Virus record (IMG/VR): IMGVR_UViG_3300042321_000183
Length of the DNA: 13,438 nt
Origin: a virus
Lineage: Duplodnaviria > Heunggongvirae > Uroviricota > Caudoviricetes
Strand: one strand, 5' to 3'
Positions 607-8,523 of this stretch are shown here, in pieces; position 1 is the stretch's first letter, and the number at the start of each line of letters is the position of its first letter. The notes beneath the pieces are model-generated. The model was given only the letters and a program-made list of their open reading frames with translations. It did not search any database and was not told the origin of the DNA. Both the position numbers and the translations under genes were made by a program.

Positions 607-640
607 AAAAAAAGCCTCCATTTCTGGGGGCTTTTCTTTT
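607..640. terminator. Bidirectional intrinsic terminator between convergent genes
   Basis: AAAAAAA-GCCTCCA-TTTC-TGGGGGC-TTTTCTTTT; stem 614-620/625-631, U-tracts on both strands, GAAA loop on the minus strand. Confidence 0.8.
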
Positions 641-842
641 ATTTTGATAGTCTCTTTTGTTTAAGAGGCCACATTTTACTTCTCAATCTAAGCTTTGTAT
701 CAGCTTCCTTCATATAATTACCATTAATTGGATTAGGAGGAGCCACCTTAGGTGCAGGTCTTGGTTTACCTGATCCTTTAGCTTTACCTGCAGTCATTGG
801 CTTTACTGACTTTGCTTGTTTAACGCTTACTTTAGATTTCAT
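639..842 (-). CDS. Small Lys/Pro-rich basic protein (67 aa), putative virion core protein
   Basis: Start moved to ATG 842, which overlaps the upstream stop (TAATG); MKSKVSVKQAK...KPRPAPKVAPPNP...KQKRLSK. Confidence 0.75.
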   Translation of the reverse strand: MKSKVSVKQAKSVKPMTAGKAKGSGKPRPAPKVAPPNPINGNYMKEADTKLRLRSKMWPLKQKRLSK

Positions 843-1309
843 TAGCAACCATTTTTACACTTACCACCCATCTTCATCACAGATTTGCCATACTTAGCTT
901 TAGTTAAACCTACAGCTTTTGTATTTTTACCTTTGTAGTTTTTACCAATTATATCTTTGTAAGAACCTAATTGCATAGATAAGCCATCTTTCTTAGGAGC
1001 AGATAATATACCACCATTTTTCATCATCTTCTTAGGTACCATAGAAGCAGCTTCACCACCATATTGCATTTTCTTCTTAGGAGTTTTACCAGCTTTCTTC
1101 ATAGCGATTGCTATTGCAGCTTGCTTAGCAGCTTTACCACCCATTTTCATCATTTCCATACCAGACATAGCTTTTTTCTTAGCACCTGCAATCTTATCTG
1201 CAAATGTAGGATTAGGATTATTATCTATACCTTTTTTTACTGATAACATTCCAAACGCTGTTTTTTCAGCTTTTTTCATCTTTGCAATTCCATTTTGAGC
1301 TTTCTTCAT
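842..1309 (-). CDS. Lys/Met-rich basic protein with repeated [AM]-[KQ]-x-G(G) motifs
   Basis: 155 aa, about 24% Lys by hand count; KKAQNG, KKAMSG, MMKMGG, KMQYGG, MMKNGG, KAKYG, VMKMGG, KCKNG; contains a KQAAIAIA segment seen in phage basic proteins. Confidence 0.8.
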   Translation of the reverse strand: MKKAQNGIAKMKKAEKTAFGMLSVKKGIDNNPNPTFADKIAGAKKKAMSGMEMMKMGGKAAKQAAIAIAMKKAGKTPKKKMQYGGEAASMVPKKMMKNGGILSAPKKDGLSMQLGSYKDIIGKNYKGKNTKAVGLTKAKYGKSVMKMGGKCKNGC

Positions 1310-1327
1310 TTTTTATAATTTAATATT

Positions 1328-1717
1328 TTAACAATTCCATTTACGAAGTGATTTATTAATTCTGCTATTAGGATCATTAGCTGTCTTAGCAGATGTAAGT
1401 TTCTTTTTCATACCTGACATTCTAGAACAGAAAGACTTACGTCTACTTGCTGCTTTAGAACCAGCTTTAAGCTTTGATGGTTTAGTTGTAACAGCTGTCT
1501 TTAGTTTGCTGCCTGGGTTAGCTCTTCTATAAGAAGCTACACCTTTAGCATTCAATCCACCTTCAGGATTCTTTCCTTCTTTGCGTTGCCATGCTGGTGT
1601 AGAACCACCACTTTTTTGGTAGCCCATTTTATTTCTAACTTCCTTAGGGAGTTTAGCCAAACCAGGTTTCTTAGAACTATCTACTGGTTTTAGAGAAGCT
1701 TTTTTAATTGTAGCCAT
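1328..1717 (-). CDS. Basic phage protein with DUF6321-like C-terminal module
   Basis: TPAWQRKEGKNPEGGLNAKG...RRKSFCSRMSGM...DPNSRINKSLRKWNC is a widespread phage module (recalled as DUF6321); N-terminus MATIKKA. Confidence 0.8.
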   Translation of the reverse strand: MATIKKASLKPVDSSKKPGLAKLPKEVRNKMGYQKSGGSTPAWQRKEGKNPEGGLNAKGVASYRRANPGSKLKTAVTTKPSKLKAGSKAASRRKSFCSRMSGMKKKLTSAKTANDPNSRINKSLRKWNC

Positions 1718-1719
1718 AG

Positions 1720-2232
1720 CTATTTCTTTTTACCTTTATATTTGTAATCAGGATTATCTTTGTGCCATTTCTTTGTAGAAGCTACACCCTGTTTAACAGT
1801 TTTGGCTCTTCCAATCTTTGTAAGATCTATTGTATCCCACTTGCCTTTGTCTTTGGTAGGATGGTTAACCATAATGTTACCCTTCTTACCTTTTCCAACT
1901 CCTGTAGGACTAGTCTTTTTATATACTAAATGCTTCTCTCCACCAGCCATTACTTTTACCTTCCCTCCATCTTCCATGGTTTTTTTAACACAGTTGTTAA
2001 CTATTCTACCACCTTTTTTCTTTGTACCCTTCTTAACATACCCTGTCCAACATTTTATCTTACCACCATTCTTTAATGATGTACCATCTTTTTTAATTAG
2101 ATGACCATTAGGAACAGGTGTTATAGCACCTTTGATAGCTGGAAGTGTATCTCCATTTCTAAGAACTCTTTTACCTACATAAGCTTCTGCTTTCTGTGGG
2201 TTATAAACTTTTGTCTTAGGTATTCTAGCCAT
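1720..2232 (-). CDS. Basic mosaic phage protein containing a CW-x-GY...NC module
   Basis: 170 aa, Lys-rich; KCWTGYVKKGTKKKGGRIVNNCVKK module is flanked by SLKNGG and TMEDGG. Confidence 0.8.
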   Translation of the reverse strand: MARIPKTKVYNPQKAEAYVGKRVLRNGDTLPAIKGAITPVPNGHLIKKDGTSLKNGGKIKCWTGYVKKGTKKKGGRIVNNCVKKTMEDGGKVKVMAGGEKHLVYKKTSPTGVGKGKKGNIMVNHPTKDKGKWDTIDLTKIGRAKTVKQGVASTKKWHKDNPDYKYKGKKK

Positions 2233-2681
2233 TATTTTTTCATCTTCTTTAATGTCATTGCTAAACGAGCACGTTGACCTAATTTACCTTTTGCTTTGGC
2301 AGCCTTAGCAAGCTTAGCAGCAGGGATAGGTTTACCTGGTTTAGCACCAAGTTGAGCACGTAAAGCTCCTGGCTTCTTAATAGCTTTTTGAATCCATTTG
2401 CCATCTTTAGCTTTAGGATTTTCTTGACTAGCTATATATTTTTTTTCTTCTGGTGTAAGAGTGTTATATCTAACAGAATCAGCACTATTCATCATAGCTT
2501 TTCTACTATTCTGTTTTTCTAAATTATACAAATCTTTACCAGTAGATCTATAATATCTATCTCCTTGAGAAGTTTTAAATCTATCAAGTTTATCATAGGT
2601 ACCAGTTTTACTATCCATAGTTGTACGTGTCCCTACAGACATTCCAGTTTGAGCCTTTTTAACCTTTTTAGCTGTTGCCAT
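2232..2681 (-). CDS. Basic phage protein with C-terminal KWIQKAIKKPGAL module
   Basis: 149 aa; N-terminal KKAQTG; C-terminal KWIQKAIKKPGALRAQLG...KLGQRARLAMTLKKM module follows KAKDG. Confidence 0.8.
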   Translation of the reverse strand: MATAKKVKKAQTGMSVGTRTTMDSKTGTYDKLDRFKTSQGDRYYRSTGKDLYNLEKQNSRKAMMNSADSVRYNTLTPEEKKYIASQENPKAKDGKWIQKAIKKPGALRAQLGAKPGKPIPAAKLAKAAKAKGKLGQRARLAMTLKKMKK

Positions 2682-2683
2682 GA

Positions 2684-3019
2684 TTATTTCTTTTTAGATT
2701 TTAACTTAGGAGCCATTTCACCACTACGCTTTTCTATCAATTCAGATTCACGCTTTAACGCTGCTTTTCTGAATGTAGCTGGATTCATTTCTTTGTAAGC
2801 TGGAGTCTTCTTATCAAGACCATAAGACTTTTCAGAACGTCCCATACTAGTAGCACCAAGTTCTTTATCTTTTTTTAATGTAGGTTTCATTCTAGCATCA
2901 GCTAGAGTAGCCTCTTGAACTTTAGTCCAAGCACCATTAGGATCTACAGGACCTACACGCTTATCAGAAGCTTTCATTCCTGAAAGACTACCCATTCTGT
3001 CTTTTTTTACCTTTGCCAT
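2684..3019 (-). CDS. Basic hypothetical protein (111 aa)
   Basis: Lys-rich; N-terminus MAKVKK; start overlaps the upstream stop (TAATG at 3019). Confidence 0.75.
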   Translation of the reverse strand: MAKVKKDRMGSLSGMKASDKRVGPVDPNGAWTKVQEATLADARMKPTLKKDKELGATSMGRSEKSYGLDKKTPAYKEMNPATFRKAALKRESELIEKRSGEMAPKLKSKKK

Positions 3020-3489
3020 TATTTTTTAGTTTTAGCTTTAATTTTCTTTTCTTGTTTTAACATAGCAGCTGTAGGCTTCTTTCCAGACCCTTTGTTAGCT
3101 CTAATGTTATCCCATAGTCCTCTTTTAGAATATGAACCATCAGCACGCTTTAGCATACCACCATTTTTCATACCTGCAACTTCATCTATAGCTTTAGAAA
3201 CTTTTGCAGCAGTTAATTTAGGTTTTTTAGTAGCTGCTTTTGCTTTCTTTATTTCAGCTTCTGAGAAGTTAGAAATCATTTCTTTCAAAGGATTATTTGT
3301 CTTAGCTGAAGCTTTCTTCTTAGCCATAGCAGCTTTACCAAACACACCAGATTTGTCTAGCTCTTTAGCTTGCTTTCTGCCAATCTCATCTATTTCAGAC
3401 TTCTTGTACATTTTACCAGTCATTTCACCTGGTACCATTTTAGAAGCTGATTTCTTAATACCAGCTTGAGCTTTCTTAATTGTTGCCAT
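3019..3489 (-). CDS. Lys/Ala-rich, histone H1-like basic protein with C-terminal GLWDNIRA module
   Basis: 156 aa; MATIKKAQAG; KKAKAATKKPKLTAAK; GMKNGG precedes MLKRADGSYSKRGLWDNIRANKG. Confidence 0.8.
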   Translation of the reverse strand: MATIKKAQAGIKKSASKMVPGEMTGKMYKKSEIDEIGRKQAKELDKSGVFGKAAMAKKKASAKTNNPLKEMISNFSEAEIKKAKAATKKPKLTAAKVSKAIDEVAGMKNGGMLKRADGSYSKRGLWDNIRANKGSGKKPTAAMLKQEKKIKAKTKK

Positions 3490-3755
3490 TATAAACTAGA
3501 TTTATTTTCTGGAACCTCTACTACTAAACCAGATTCAACTCCAGCAGCCAATGTCTCTTCAAGAACATCTCCTGCTTGTTTAGCTAATAAAATAGTTTGT
3601 GCTTCCTTTGTATTAATAACTGCACGCATTGCGTTTAATAACATTCCAAAATCACCACCATCTAATACAAACTTTGCATCCATATTCCACGTATACTTCT
3701 TGTTTGGATCAAACTTAGGACCTTGTTGTTGTTGTAAATCAATAATCTCTGCCAT
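3489..3755 (-). CDS. Hypothetical protein (88 aa)
   Basis: Coupled to the next gene (TAATG at 3489); first gene after the promoter at 3780-3811; no recognised motif. Confidence 0.75.
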   Translation of the reverse strand: MAEIIDLQQQQGPKFDPNKKYTWNMDAKFVLDGGDFGMLLNAMRAVINTKEAQTILLAKQAGDVLEETLAAGVESGLVVEVPENKSSL

Positions 3756-3779
3756 ATAATTATATTTTTGGTTTAGTCA

Positions 3780-3811
3780 CAAAGATATGCATTTATTGCG
3801 TATCTTCCAAA
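3780..3811 (-). promoter_or_regulatory. Bacteroidota primary-sigma promoter (-33 TTTG / -7 TAnnTTTG)
   Basis: Minus strand reads TTTG (3811-3808), 20 nt, TATCTTTG (3787-3780), 24 nt upstream of ATG 3755. Confidence 0.75.
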
Positions 3812-4086
3812 TTTATTTCAAACGTTATAGTTGCTGAACTTTTAATACTCTTAGACAGATTCAGTCTAATCTTGAACATGTTATGAAACTTTAAGATTTC
3901 TTCTAGCAACATTTCATTGTACATGGGTACTGAAGGTGCCAATCTAAAGTGATACGAATTAGGATTTTTAGTAATCTCTAACGTAGATAGTTCATCAACT
4001 GAGGATATAATTCCCTCAAGGTGTGCAAAATAAGCAAGTTCATTATCTTGCATCACCTGAGGAAAAAATTTCTTGTTAATTTGCAT
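3793..4086 (-). CDS. Hypothetical protein (97 aa)
   Basis: TAATG-coupled to the ferritin-like gene; globular-looking composition; no recognised family. Confidence 0.75.
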   Translation of the reverse strand: MQINKKFFPQVMQDNELAYFAHLEGIISSVDELSTLEITKNPNSYHFRLAPSVPMYNEMLLEEILKFHNMFKIRLNLSKSIKSSATITFEINLEDTQ

Positions 4087-4490
4087 TAAGACAAGGTTAA
4101 TAAGTATTTAGTTTTTGCTGCTTCACCACTTAGGGCATCAGCTAAATTGGCTATATCGTGATAGCTGTTTGATTCAGCATATCTCTTTAAGTTACTAGAG
4201 AAGTCCATTAGTGCTGTGACAACTGAATTAGAGTCTGCACCGCTCAATGCTTCTATTTTATATACACCAGGACGTTTACCTGTATAACCCATAAGCTTCT
4301 CTATCACACCATCTTTAAAGTCATGTACATAATCATACAATCCTCCTAAAGCTTGGTGCTCAGCATAACTTTTTGTCTGCCAATGTAATAGGTGTAGTTG
4401 CTCATGGAAATATGTAAGCTTCCCAGCTATTGTTTCCAAGTTTAATTCCCCTGATTTCATCATCTCTTCAGGGAATAATGATTTTGCCAT
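4086..4490 (-). CDS. Dps/ferritin-like four-helix protein (DUF5856-like)
   Basis: HLLHWQTKSYAEHQALGGLYD...KDGVIEKLMG; the His(15 residues)Asp(4 residues)Glu spacing matches Dps ferroxidase ligands. Confidence 0.8.
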   Translation of the reverse strand: MAKSLFPEEMMKSGELNLETIAGKLTYFHEQLHLLHWQTKSYAEHQALGGLYDYVHDFKDGVIEKLMGYTGKRPGVYKIEALSGADSNSVVTALMDFSSNLKRYAESNSYHDIANLADALSGEAAKTKYLLTLS

Positions 4491-7274: not shown

Positions 7275-7403
7275 TTATCTGCCCTGTCTGTTGTAAGGCT
7301 TAGTTGCTTTGTCCTTAGGACCTTTGAACTTAGTAGCCTTTCCTCCTTTGCGTTTTCCAAAGGTAATTTTCTTAGCATTTGATGCTCCTTTTGCTTTTGC
7401 CAT
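7275..7403 (-). CDS. 42-aa highly basic peptide ending YNRQGR (not in ORF track)
   Basis: MAKAKGASNAKKITFGKRKGGKATKFKGPKDKATKPYNRQGR*; leader TAAATAACCAAC-ATG; the C-terminus resembles small phage proteins ending Y-x-G-Q-G-[RK]. Confidence 0.8.
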   Translation of the reverse strand: MAKAKGASNAKKITFGKRKGGKATKFKGPKDKATKPYNRQGR

Positions 7404-7408
7404 GTTGG

Positions 7409-7825
7409 TTATTTATGTAATGATGAAATTGTACCAAATTGTATAAGAACAATTAATATTAATAGTCCTTTAGATATTTCATGTAACCTATCTCTACCAC
7501 GTTGATCTTTCTCTTGACTCAAGAATATCTCCCTGTTTGCTTCATACTTCCATTTGTATTGCATAGCTTCATACATTAGTCTTCCAAGACTATCATATTT
7601 TCTTTGCAAGGAGTCAATCTTTACTCTATTTAATTGAGTATCAACCTTTAAGAGATCTATCTGAGCTCTGTAGTTTTTATACAAAGTATTGATTTGATCT
7701 CCCTGTTCTACAGTCATAATGACTACAGAATCTTTACCTATTCTTCTTGTCTTTGGGTATTGGCAATAAGATGAAACTGATACCAGTGTCAATGCTAACA
7801 CTATCAAGAGCTGCTTTAGCTTCAT
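7409..7825 (-). CDS. Secreted coiled-coil protein with C-terminal TM anchor (spanin-like, type I topology)
   Basis: Sec signal MKLKQLLIVLALTLVSVSSYC|Q (Gln at +1, typical of Bacteroidota); heptad-like middle; C-terminal GLLILIVLIQFGTI. Confidence 0.7.
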   Translation of the reverse strand: MKLKQLLIVLALTLVSVSSYCQYPKTRRIGKDSVVIMTVEQGDQINTLYKNYRAQIDLLKVDTQLNRVKIDSLQRKYDSLGRLMYEAMQYKWKYEANREIFLSQEKDQRGRDRLHEISKGLLILIVLIQFGTISSLHK

Positions 7826-8075
7826 TTAATTCTGTTTTGAGAGTGGTAACCTCTTCTTTGAGGTTGGTTATATTTTGAACTGTTTCTTTTACAATCTTCT
7901 TTTGTGTCTCACTAGCCTTGGCTTGAACCTGTAGGCTTATTTTAGTATTTGTTTCAACTTCGTTAAGAAGTTGTTCAAACTTCCTGTCTTCTTCAACAGA
8001 GCTATCAATTTTTTGAGCAGTTGTATTTTGGCACCCATAGATGAATGGTATTAATATGATTAATAAGTATTTCAT
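7734..8075 (-). CDS. Coiled-coil lipoprotein (o-spanin-like)
   Basis: MKYLLIILIPFIYG|C lipobox-like signal; heptad region ITNLKEEVTTLKTELNEAKAAL; located in the lysis module. Confidence 0.65.
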   Translation of the reverse strand: MKYLLIILIPFIYGCQNTTAQKIDSSVEEDRKFEQLLNEVETNTKISLQVQAKASETQKKIVKETVQNITNLKEEVTTLKTELNEAKAALDSVSIDTGISFILLPIPKDKKNR

Positions 8076-8377
8076 TAGTTAAGCTTTTTAATTGCTCCTA
8101 ATTGTTGTAATGTCTGTAACTGAGTACTAGTTACAGCTTTGGCTGAATCACTCACTCTAAGTGCTTCCTGCACTCTATCCAATCTAGTTTCCACCTTATC
8201 AATACGTACATTCTGAGAAGTTGCCTGCTCTTTGAATGTTGTACGAACGTCTATGTACAGGTATGAAATAGCAATGAGCACCAAGAAAAGGGTGCCCACT
8301 ATTGGGTTTTTAGCAAACTCCTTAAACGATATAGGTAAAGGGTTTGCTGAAATGTTTGTTTCTTTTTTTGCTGCCAT
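8075..8377 (-). CDS. Single-TM coiled-coil membrane protein (i-spanin-like)
   Basis: TM IVGTLFLVLIAISYLYI then IDKVETRLDRVQEAL; TAATG-coupled on both sides. Confidence 0.65.
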   Translation of the reverse strand: MAAKKETNISANPLPISFKEFAKNPIVGTLFLVLIAISYLYIDVRTTFKEQATSQNVRIDKVETRLDRVQEALRVSDSAKAVTSTQLQTLQQLGAIKKLN

Positions 8378-8523
8378 TATTTATAGTTTTTTAAAACTTG
8401 TTGAGCATTAAGTGCTGTCCATACATTGTACAATACCTCACTGTTATGTTTTAATAGTTCTGCTTTTTTAACTCCAGAGCGTCTGCTACGCATTGCTTTA
8501 GGTTTTTTCTTAGCGTTAGCCAT
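8377..8523 (-). CDS. 48-aa basic hypothetical protein (not in ORF track)
   Basis: MANAKKKPKAMRSRRSGVKKAELLKHNSEVLYNVWTALNAQQVLKNYK*; TAATG overlaps at both ends, so it exactly fills the gap. Confidence 0.75.
   Translation of the reverse strand: MANAKKKPKAMRSRRSGVKKAELLKHNSEVLYNVWTALNAQQVLKNYK

What the first reader, a model, noticed from the sequence alone, without database searches (positions are those of the whole stretch)
639..3489. Seven consecutive highly basic, histone H1/protamine-like genes forming a putative viral nucleoprotein operon
Seen: seven tightly coupled Lys-rich genes lie between their own promoter (3780-3811, shared with the 88-aa gene) and a terminator (607-640). They share paralogous N-termini (MATIKKAQAG, MATIKKAS, MATAKKVKKAQTG, MKKAQNG, MAKVKK). 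Inferred: these are internal head proteins that neutralise or condense packaged DNA, or are injected to bind host DNA or ribosomes. Single genes of this kind are common in aquatic phage metagenomes, but I know of no functional characterisation of a dedicated array like this.
Basis: partly seen in the sequence, partly recalled or inferred. Interest (0 to 1): 0.75.

Follow-up and report, generated by a model that had tools for sequence, protein, structure and literature searches.

The report
Cassette of basic phage cargo mini-proteins
Seven back-to-back genes of a freshwater crAss-like phage encode small, very positively charged proteins built from shuffled mini-modules that other phages carry inside proteins known to travel in the virus particle, so they are probably packed with the DNA and injected, but they are not histone or protamine relatives and their job is untested.

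Summary
Seven tightly coupled minus-strand genes (639-3489) encode proteins with pI 10.1-11.3 and 19-24% Lys. An acidic 88-aa gene heads the unit. It lies between a Bacteroidota-type -33/-7 promoter (3811-3780), conserved in relatives, and a hairpin terminator (610-635).

The seven are not paralogs: no pair is significantly similar once composition is corrected. They are strings of about ten unrelated mini-modules, one of them Pfam DUF6321. Related crassviruses fuse, split and reorder these modules; the acidic gene always comes first and the 67-aa gene last.

Three modules tie the cassette to virions:
- The C-terminal modules of genes 1 and 4 sit inside hundreds of 600-2400-aa proteins. These also carry the crassvirus cargo-protein-1 domain, polyvalent-protein ADP-ribosyltransferases or peptidoglycan hydrolases. 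One lies in the canonical ring-muzzle-C1 gene slot.
- A DUF6321 protein was detected in purified cyanophage S-SM1 particles (Sullivan 2010).

Best reading (about 0.6): packaged and ejected basic cargo proteins, analogous to T4 internal proteins. DNA condensation is plausible but has no direct support, and nothing supports H1 or protamine homology.

A [Y/F/M]-x-x-G-G joint punctuates the modules and is sevenfold enriched in the giant proteins. No matching protease was found.

This scan has met the same kind of cassette before on other DNA.

The parts
3780..3811 (-). Bacteroidota-type promoter: -33 TTTG (3811-3808), 20-nt spacer, -7 TATCTTTG (3787-3780)
   Evidence: Exact match to TTTG-N17-22-TAnnTTTG. 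The motif is conserved upstream of g88 homologues in about 30 relatives.
3489..3755 (-). g88: acidic 88-aa protein (pI 4.5), invariable first gene of the cassette; ATAATG overlap with gene 1
   Evidence: It comes first in every multi-module locus. AF2 gives pLDDT 83 with a helical hairpin. No fold or sequence match.
3019..3489 (-). basic gene 1 (156 aa)
   Evidence: 2368 unnamed homologues of similar length.
3022..3171 (-). module b1-C (residues 107-156, core ...KRADGSYSKRGLWDNIRANKGSGKKPT...)
   Evidence: Near-invariant over about 40 residues in 270 sequences. Found in at least 566 viral contigs. Found in 1474 longer proteins, many with crAss_CARG1 or ART-PolyVal.
2684..3019 (-). basic gene 2 (111 aa); module at residues 10-59 (2843-2992) moves between genes in relatives
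2232..2681 (-). basic gene 3 (149 aa)
2235..2414 (-). module b3-C (residues 90-149), widespread as a stand-alone gene of about 80 aa
   Evidence: At least 557 viral contigs. Median ORF length 83 aa. Weak hit to phrog_20603.
1720..2232 (-). basic gene 4 (170 aa): disordered N-terminus, a Cys...Cys module (about residues 60-84), then a C-terminal domain
1729..1977 (-). module b4-C (residues about 86-168), predicted beta-sheet plus helices
   Evidence: pLDDT 77-86 over residues 90-160, mean 62 for the whole protein. Embedded in 700-2400-aa proteins that also carry CARG1, peptidoglycan hydrolase or ART domains.
1328..1717 (-). basic gene 5 (129 aa)
1337..1576 (-). DUF6321 domain (residues 48-127), ending in a conserved terminal ...WNC
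   Evidence: Pfam PF19846, E = 8.9e-21, 74.8 bits against a 28.5-bit cut-off. 534 phage records. The S-SM1 orthologue is a virion protein.
842..1309 (-). basic gene 6 (155 aa), four M-x-x-G-G joints, ends ...CKNGC
639..842 (-). basic gene 7 (67 aa from ATG 842), invariable last gene of the cassette
610..635 (.). hairpin terminator serving both convergent units

Best explanation
The unit is a self-contained cassette: promoter, acidic gene, seven basic genes, terminator. Its products are most likely cargo proteins. They would be made from a host-type promoter of the same class as the tail-fibre and lysis units, loaded into the capsid or tail cargo space, and released into the host with the DNA. 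Each protein is a string of small independent basic modules joined by [Y/F/M/A]-x-x-G-G linkers and headed by a short Lys-rich leader. In other crassviruses and other aquatic phages the same modules are beads inside the giant C1-type cargo or polyvalent proteins; here they are encoded as free small genes.

Shown: the genes, their conservation and shuffling, the domain fusions, and virion detection of one module's family in another phage.

Inferred: that these seven proteins are themselves packaged, and that their positive charge serves binding of the phage DNA, for charge neutralisation in the head or coating and escort of the entering genome. Which of these applies is open.
For: - The cassette is conserved in eight crassvirus relatives and many further contigs, with modules fused, split or reordered but fixed end genes. 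The relatives carry the crassvirus muzzle protein.
- Module b4-C: 263 hits, mostly inside 700-2400-aa proteins. Of 36 scanned, families found were DUF6321 x4, PG_binding_1 x4, VanY x3, crAss_CARG1 x2, SLT x2, YkuD x2, Glucosaminidase x2, Phage_lysozyme x2, ADPrib_exo_Tox and ART-PolyVal.
- Module b1-C: 1474 longer proteins. Among the top 120, 13 carry PF25725 (crAss_CARG1) and 3 carry ART-PolyVal. 64 giants hold both b1-C and b4-C.
- P0368 (1852 aa, CARG1 plus b1-C) lies in the order Ring2-Ring1-muzzle-[P0368]-896 aa-2630 aa. This is the slot of PhicrAss001 gp45, which MS and cryo-EM place in capsid and tail (PMC10172136).
- DUF6321: S-SM1 T4-GC119 (SSM1_115, domain at residues 424-493) was detected in purified virions with 13 peptide counts (PMC3037559 Suppl. 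Table 8 and ORF sheet).
- Polyvalent proteins are argued to be packaged and injected (PMC5512222).
- The cargo-slot giants of a complete relative carry the same joints and an N-terminal basic leader ending in YEQGG, as do many module-bearing giants.
- The promoter is of the same -33/-7 type as those heading the lysis and fibre units on the same strand.
Against: - No direct evidence that any of the seven proteins is in a virion.
- No cultured relative: tblastn of genes 1, 4 and 6 found nothing in 50,697 GenBank phage records.
- T4-GC119 was not detected in Syn9 virions although it is encoded there.
- The fusions are to large proteins whose packaging is itself mostly inferred; only the C1 and T4-GC119 families are shown experimentally.
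- The cassette lies about 57 kb from the muzzle and cargo genes in a complete relative, beside lysis and fibre genes rather than head genes.
- The Lys-rich leader is not universal: in other phages the same modules start directly after MAK.
- Nothing tests DNA binding.
Confidence: 0.6

Rival explanations
1. The proteins are not packaged. They are intracellular nucleic-acid-binding helpers, for example acting on the host nucleoid, ribosomes or mRNA, or assisting genome packaging from outside the capsid.
For: They have extreme positive charge and conserved R/K-rich cores. The promoter is read by the host polymerase. A Dps-like gene lies two genes upstream. The near-invariance of b1-C across phages of different hosts argues for a universal ligand such as nucleic acid.
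Against: This does not explain why the same modules are embedded in C1-type cargo and polyvalent proteins, or why a DUF6321 protein is in virions. No similarity to ribosomal or nucleoid proteins was found in Pfam.
Confidence: 0.2
2. The proteins are cationic envelope-active factors that help lysis or entry by binding peptidoglycan, LPS or membranes.
For: The cassette follows the holin/GH19 endolysin/spanin and fibre units on the same strand. The giants that hold the modules are rich in peptidoglycan-binding and peptidoglycan-cleaving domains: PG_binding_1, VanY, SLT, YkuD, lysozyme, LysM.
Against: The cassette has its own promoter and terminator, separate from the lysis unit. There are no signal peptides or membrane segments in the seven sequences. 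Peptidoglycan hydrolase domains in giant phage proteins are typical of ejected proteins, which fits the main reading just as well.
Confidence: 0.1
3. The genes are a tandemly duplicated family of histone-H1/protamine-like low-complexity paralogs.
For: Shared composition and similar first residues.
Against: No pairwise similarity after composition correction. Each gene has its own distinct, widely conserved modules. No H1, Hc1 or protamine family hit. Arg is only 0-7%.
Confidence: 0.03

Closest known systems
Bacteriophage T4 internal proteins IPI, IPII, IPIII and the polymorphic IP locus, with the N-terminal capsid-targeting sequence (from established knowledge of T4; not searched here)
   Same: Several adjacent genes encode small basic proteins of unrelated sequence that share a short N-terminal leader. 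They are packed in the head and injected with the DNA. The locus varies strongly between related phages.
   Different: No sequence similarity. T4 leaders end in an L/I-x-E site cut by the gp21 protease, whereas here the leader ends in x-x-G(G) and no head protease was found. Packaging is not shown here.
Crassvirus cargo protein 1 (PhicrAss001 gp45; Pfam PF25725 crAss_CARG1; PMC10172136)
   Same: Modules b1-C and b4-C occur inside C1-type proteins, next to the portal-binding CARG1 domain on either side, and in the canonical gene slot.
   Different: The seven proteins have no CARG1 domain. No CARG1 match was found in complete relatives. They are small, separate and encoded far from the cargo genes.
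Cyanomyovirus T4-GC119 'structural protein' (S-SM1 SSM1_115; P-HM2 PHM2_112), a DUF6321 protein
   Same: It has the same DUF6321 domain as gene 5, with the same terminal ...WNC. It has been found experimentally in virions.
   Different: It is a single 230-990-aa protein encoded between the terminase genes of T4-like phages, not part of an array.
Polyvalent proteins of phages and conjugative elements (Iyer et al. 2017, PMC5512222)
   Same: The modules are beads in giant multi-domain proteins with ART-PolyVal and cell-wall hydrolase domains.
   Different: Here the beads are free small genes without any enzymatic domain. These modules returned no hits in my term searches of that paper, which I did not read in full.
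Adenovirus core proteins VII, V and mu, processed by adenain at (M/I/L)-x-G-G|x (from memory; a lead only)
   Same: Basic proteins packed with viral DNA, with Gly-Gly motifs preceded by a hydrophobic residue.
   Different: They belong to a eukaryotic virus and are Arg-rich. The hydrophobic residue here is one position further from GG. No clan-CE protease was found. No homology.

Membership tests
Pfam DUF6321 (PF19846) | Match to the family profile above its gathering score | tested here: met
   Gene 5, residues 48-127: E = 8.9e-21, 74.8 bits against a 28.5-bit cut-off, full profile 1-72.
Linker histone H1 / bacterial Hc1 / protamine | Profile match to a histone H1/H5, Hc1 or protamine family | tested here: not met
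   Pfam scan of all seven at E <= 1 lists none of these families.
Linker histone H1 / bacterial Hc1 / protamine | Low-complexity K/A/P tail (H1) or Arg-dominated sequence (protamine) | tested here: not met
   Arg is 0-7% and Lys 19-24%. The sequences consist of conserved non-repetitive modules, one of them predicted to fold.
T4-type internal proteins | N-terminal capsid-targeting sequence ending in an L/I-x-E protease site | tested here: not met
   The N-termini are MATIKKAQAG, MAKVKKDR, MATAKKVKKAQTG, MARIPKTK, MATIKKAS, MKKAQNG and MKSKVS; none has L/I-x-E.
T4-type internal proteins | A prohead protease encoded in the genome | tested here: inconclusive
   Peptidase_S78, C39 and C48 were not found in two complete relatives. 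The T4 gp21 family (S77) was not searched, and the window's own genome is not held.
T4-type internal proteins | Presence inside the capsid and injection with the DNA | not testable with these tools
   Needs virion proteomics. Only indirect support exists.
Crassvirus cargo protein 1 (PF25725) | The portal-binding CARG1 domain | tested here: not met
   No hit in any of the seven proteins. The domain is present in other phages' proteins that contain modules b1-C or b4-C.
Polyvalent proteins (Iyer 2017) | Two or more domains of disparate biochemical activity in one polypeptide | tested here: not met
   The seven proteins are 67-170 aa with no enzymatic domain. Their modules occur in such proteins elsewhere.

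The most novel reading that the evidence does not exclude
The small basic modules form a shared 'cargo alphabet' of aquatic phages (crassviruses, T4-like cyanophages, pelagiphages). They would be autonomous beads delimited by [Y/F/M]-x-x-G-G joints, which are both the points where genes are fused or split in evolution and sites where an unidentified protease (viral, host or autocatalytic) releases the beads. The Lys-rich N-terminal leader ending in x-x-G(G) would be a removable loading signal equivalent to the T4 capsid-targeting sequence. The always-first acidic gene would be a chaperone or loader for the basic beads. In this lineage the cassette would be a C1-type cargo protein taken apart into separate genes.
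Probability: 0.2. Interest if true: 0.8.

Novelty: new variant of a known kind. Interest (0 to 1): 0.55.

Why it matters
Proteins that phages carry in the particle and inject decide the first minutes of infection: protecting the DNA, defeating host defences and taking over the cell. Outside a few model phages they are poorly known.

This cassette links thousands of unannotated, highly conserved mini-genes of lake and ocean phages, including Pfam DUF6321, to that compartment. It also shows that they are interchangeable beads of the giant cargo proteins of crassviruses.

If packaging is confirmed, three things follow. A large block of viral 'dark matter' would get a cellular address. There would be a tractable set of 50-80-residue domains to test for DNA binding or anti-defence activity. 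And the G-G joints would point to a possible processing or loading signal.

Tried and rejected
- **Cultured relatives.** Megablast of the whole window and tblastn of genes 1, 4 and 6 against GenBank phages gave no match. No whole genome is held for the window.
- **Literature.** Searches for DUF6321, and for lysine-rich virion proteins of crAss-like phages, returned nothing. A cyanophage proteomics keyword search returned nothing relevant.
- **ESM Atlas, gene 4.** Only unnamed viral clusters, scores <= 0.85.
- **Fold searches.** The gene 4 model gave best Z 3.7 against 48,161 PDB representatives and nothing convincing in AFDB clusters. The acidic g88 model gave no PDB or BFVD match at E <= 0.001, and its profile had no PDB sequence hit.
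- **Complex prediction of g88 with gene 7.** No verdict (score 0.00); this is not evidence either way.
- **Public RNA runs.** Three lake metatranscriptome or metagenome runs hold only short contig pieces of this or related phages. Pieces fall on 673-858 and 2176-2417, among others. Depth is not interpretable and DNA carry-over is not excluded.
- **Searches in complete relatives.** No match for crAss_CARG1, the HK97-type prohead protease S78, the double-glycine peptidase C39 or the Ulp-type C48. Absence of a match is weak evidence.
- **Sigma-70 scan.** It did not detect the promoter, because the promoter follows the Bacteroidota consensus.
- **Tandem duplication.** Considered and rejected.
- **'MA' start as an array-specific signal.** Rejected: many non-array genes here also start MA, and 23% of control ORFs do. 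Only the fuller MA[TK][IVAM]KK leader is enriched: 17% of 342 array-type ORFs against 1% of 839 controls.
Full report
**What is there.** Bases 639-3489 of the minus strand hold seven ORFs of 156, 111, 149, 170, 129, 155 and 67 aa.
- The last is best started at the ATG at 842, which overlaps the preceding stop as TAATG. Independent gene calls on identical public contigs give the same sizes.
- Junctions are -1, +2, -1, +2, +18 and -1 nt.
- All seven have pI 10.1-11.3, 19-24% Lys, 0-7% Arg and net charge +15 to +33. Most surrounding genes are acidic or only mildly basic; two tiny Lys-rich ORFs further upstream are the exception.
- An acidic 88-aa gene (3489-3755, pI 4.5) overlaps gene 1 as ATAATG.
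- No gene has a Shine-Dalgarno sequence, and many genes in the window start ATG-GCN.

**Promoter and terminator.**
TTTG (3811-3808), a 20-nt spacer and TATCTTTG (3787-3780) give one of only three full matches to TTTG-N17-22-TAnnTTTG in the window.
- The two boxes are conserved upstream of the 88-aa gene in about 30 relatives whose flanking sequence has diverged.
- A second full match heads the lysis unit at 10393-10362, and a -7 box precedes the fibre gene at 7193-7186. So the 10-kb minus-strand block probably consists of three units with the same promoter class.
- An 11-pair hairpin with a T-run at 610-635 ends the cassette and the convergent glycosyltransferase gene.

**Not paralogs, but strings of modules.**
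- With composition-corrected BLASTP no pair among the seven is significantly similar; the best E is 0.26.
- Each gene has its own relatives. In eight related contigs of about 100 kb the cassette is present with six or seven genes. Three of these contigs carry the crassvirus muzzle protein, and two are rated complete.
- The pieces are joined differently between relatives. The N-terminal 62 residues of gene 4 are fused to DUF6321 in two relatives. The module at residues 10-59 of gene 2 sits at 94-143 of a 157-aa protein elsewhere. The C-terminal 59 residues of gene 3 follow a gene-2-like module in another.
- Across 201 fetched loci the interior order is permuted in many ways. The acidic gene is always first and the gene-7 homologue always last.

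**The modules outside this clade.**
- Gene 5 is Pfam DUF6321 (E = 8.9e-21). The domain occurs in 534 GenBank phage records, mostly T4-like cyanophages and pelagiphages. In the cyanophages it ends a protein encoded between the two terminase genes.
- The last 50 residues of gene 1 (b1-C) are nearly invariant over about 40 positions in 270 sequences. They occur in at least 566 viral contigs, in 2368 proteins of similar length and in 1474 longer ones.
- The C-terminal module of gene 3 occurs in at least 557 viral contigs, mostly as a stand-alone gene of about 80 aa.
- The C-terminal 80 residues of gene 4 (b4-C) gave 263 hits in an exhaustive phmmer search, most of them inside proteins of 700-2400 aa.

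**The link to virions.**
- I scanned 36 of the giant proteins holding b4-C against Pfam. They also carry DUF6321 (4), PG_binding_1 (4), VanY (3), crAss_CARG1 (2), SLT (2), YkuD (2), glucosaminidase (2), phage lysozyme (2), LysM, ADPrib_exo_Tox and ART-PolyVal.
- Among the 120 best longer proteins holding b1-C, 13 carry crAss_CARG1 and 3 carry ART-PolyVal. 64 giants hold both modules.
- One such protein (1852 aa) is encoded directly after Ring 2, Ring 1 and the muzzle protein, and before genes of 896 and 2630 aa. That is the position of PhicrAss001 gp45, cargo protein 1. Mass spectrometry and cryo-EM place gp45 in both capsid and tail, and its residues 425-552 bind the portal (PMC10172136).
- ART-PolyVal and cell-wall hydrolases are hallmarks of the polyvalent proteins that Iyer et al. 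argue are packaged and injected (PMC5512222).
- Independently, Sullivan et al. 2010 list T4-GC119 as a structural protein detected in purified S-SM1 virions with 13 peptide counts. It is absent from S-PM2 and was not detected in Syn9 (Suppl. Table 8 and ORF sheet).
- I confirmed that the S-SM1 protein (SSM1_115, 495 aa) carries DUF6321 at residues 424-493.
- So three of the cassette's modules belong to proteins that are, or sit in the gene slot of, experimentally established virion proteins.

**Joints and leader.**
- Module boundaries in the cassette carry M-[KQE]-x-G-G: 107 in gene 1; 53 and 86 in gene 4; 34 in gene 5; 54, 81, 96 and 145 in gene 6. The N-termini carry a related KKAQxG.
- In 141 module-bearing proteins of at least 600 aa, [Y/M/F]-x-x-G-G occurs 993 times against 144 +/- 11 in shuffles. 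Median spacing is 66 residues, about one module. Y/F/H/M are enriched at -3 and a hydrophobic pair follows GG.
- b1-C is flanked by such joints on both sides in the giants.
- In a complete relative, the two giant genes in the cargo slot after the muzzle carry the same joints, and one begins with a basic leader ending YEQGG. Many giants begin in the same way.
- The strict leader MA[TK][IVAM]KK heads 17% of 342 distinct array-type ORFs against 1% of 839 control ORFs. It is not universal: in other phages the same modules follow MAK directly.
- The joints may be hinges, recombination joints or cleavage sites. I found no S78, C39 or C48 protease in two complete relatives.

**Structure.**
- AF2 with a 77-row alignment gives gene 4 a disordered N-terminus (residues 9-57 below pLDDT 50) and a moderately confident beta-sheet plus helices over residues 90-165 (pLDDT 77-86).
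- Nothing in the PDB representatives or AFDB clusters resembles it convincingly; the best Z is 3.7.
- In the giants this domain has invariant His, Tyr, Trp-Asp and His-x-Glu positions. By eye, gene 4 reads N where the consensus has the His of the GHIMVNHPT stretch, and D for the Glu of WHKENP; I did not align it to confirm.
- The acidic g88 folds as a confident helical hairpin with an ordered N-terminal arm (pLDDT 83) and has no known relatives.

**How it most likely works.** The cassette most likely encodes cargo proteins that enter the particle and leave it with the DNA (confidence about 0.6). Three points are inference.
- Binding the phage genome is the simplest use of about +179 charges per set of proteins, but it is untested.
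- The acidic first gene would be a plausible chaperone for basic partners, but the one complex prediction gave no verdict.
- The timing is probably late, judged only from the shared promoter class and the neighbouring fibre and lysis units.

The rivals are non-packaged nucleic-acid binders (0.2), envelope-active cationic factors (0.1) and H1-like paralogs (0.03, contradicted).

**Comparison and novelty.**
- Functionally the nearest known system is the T4 internal-protein locus. It is the same in being adjacent small basic proteins of unrelated sequence with a shared leader at a variable locus. It differs in lacking the L/I-x-E site and a detectable head protease, and membership is not met.
- By homology the anchors are crassvirus C1 cargo proteins and the cyanophage T4-GC119 protein.
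- I found no paper describing these modules or cassettes.
- This scan has reported similar cassettes on other genomes with the same general reading. New here are the direct CARG1 and C1-slot link, the fixed end genes with the conserved host-type promoter, and the quantified joint motif.
- I rate it a new variant of a known kind (virion internal or cargo proteins), of moderate interest.

Noticed in passing
window 4086-4490 (-): A Dps-like gene (Pfam DUF5856, E = 2.6e-14; phrog_858 'starvation-inducible regulator', 1.4e-14; weak PDB hits to MrgA and HP-NAP) lies two genes upstream of the cassette. It also lies upstream in another related contig. A DNA-protecting ferritin-like protein next to basic cargo genes may not be a coincidence.
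   Followed up: partly
window 7275-7403 (-) and 8377-8523 (-): Two further tiny Lys-rich genes (42 aa, pI 11.4, 29% Lys; 48 aa, pI 10.6) sit outside the cassette, one between the spanin-like genes and the fibre gene and one after the endolysin. The 42-aa gene is conserved in the relatives.
   Followed up: partly
window 1328-1336 and 842-860 (-); L002, L003: DUF6321 proteins end with Cys as the very last residue (...WNC) in crassvirus, pelagiphage and cyanophage copies. Gene 6 and its relatives end ...CKNGC or ...CKYGCK. Conserved terminal cysteines suggest disulfide or metal links between cargo proteins.
   Followed up: no
window 3756-3779 (-) and relatives: Between the -7 box and the ATG of the 88-aa gene nearly all relatives keep an AAACCAAAA element. 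It may be a transcription-start or leader signal for SD-less translation.
   Followed up: no
L001 3975-9236 (Marine virus AG-345-E15): Four consecutive Lys-rich multi-module proteins (416, 632, 454 and 178 aa). One carries DUF6321 and a Cys...Cys motif like that of gene 4. One has a weak cytidylyltransferase hit, which recalls the virion cytidylyltransferase T4-GC190 of cyanophages.
   Followed up: partly
L204 7047-14210 (complete relative G001, after the muzzle gene): The giant genes in the cargo slot of this lineage have no CARG1 match but carry [Y/F/M]-x-x-G-G joints and an N-terminal MAKWLDKYEQGG leader. The next one has a glycine-zipper hit.
   Followed up: partly
window 7409-8075 (-): Two overlapping genes after the endolysin look like a spanin pair. 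The 113-aa product starts with a lipobox-like ...IYGC, and the 138-aa product has a hydrophobic N-terminal segment that could be a signal or anchor sequence.
   Followed up: no
alignment A1 (giant proteins), domain equal to gene 4 residues 86-168: The domain has invariant His, Tyr, Trp-Asp-Thr-Ile-Asp-Leu-Thr and Trp-His-x-Glu positions, which suggests a metal or catalytic site. By eye, the window's copy appears changed at two of them (His to Asn, Glu to Asp).
   Followed up: partly
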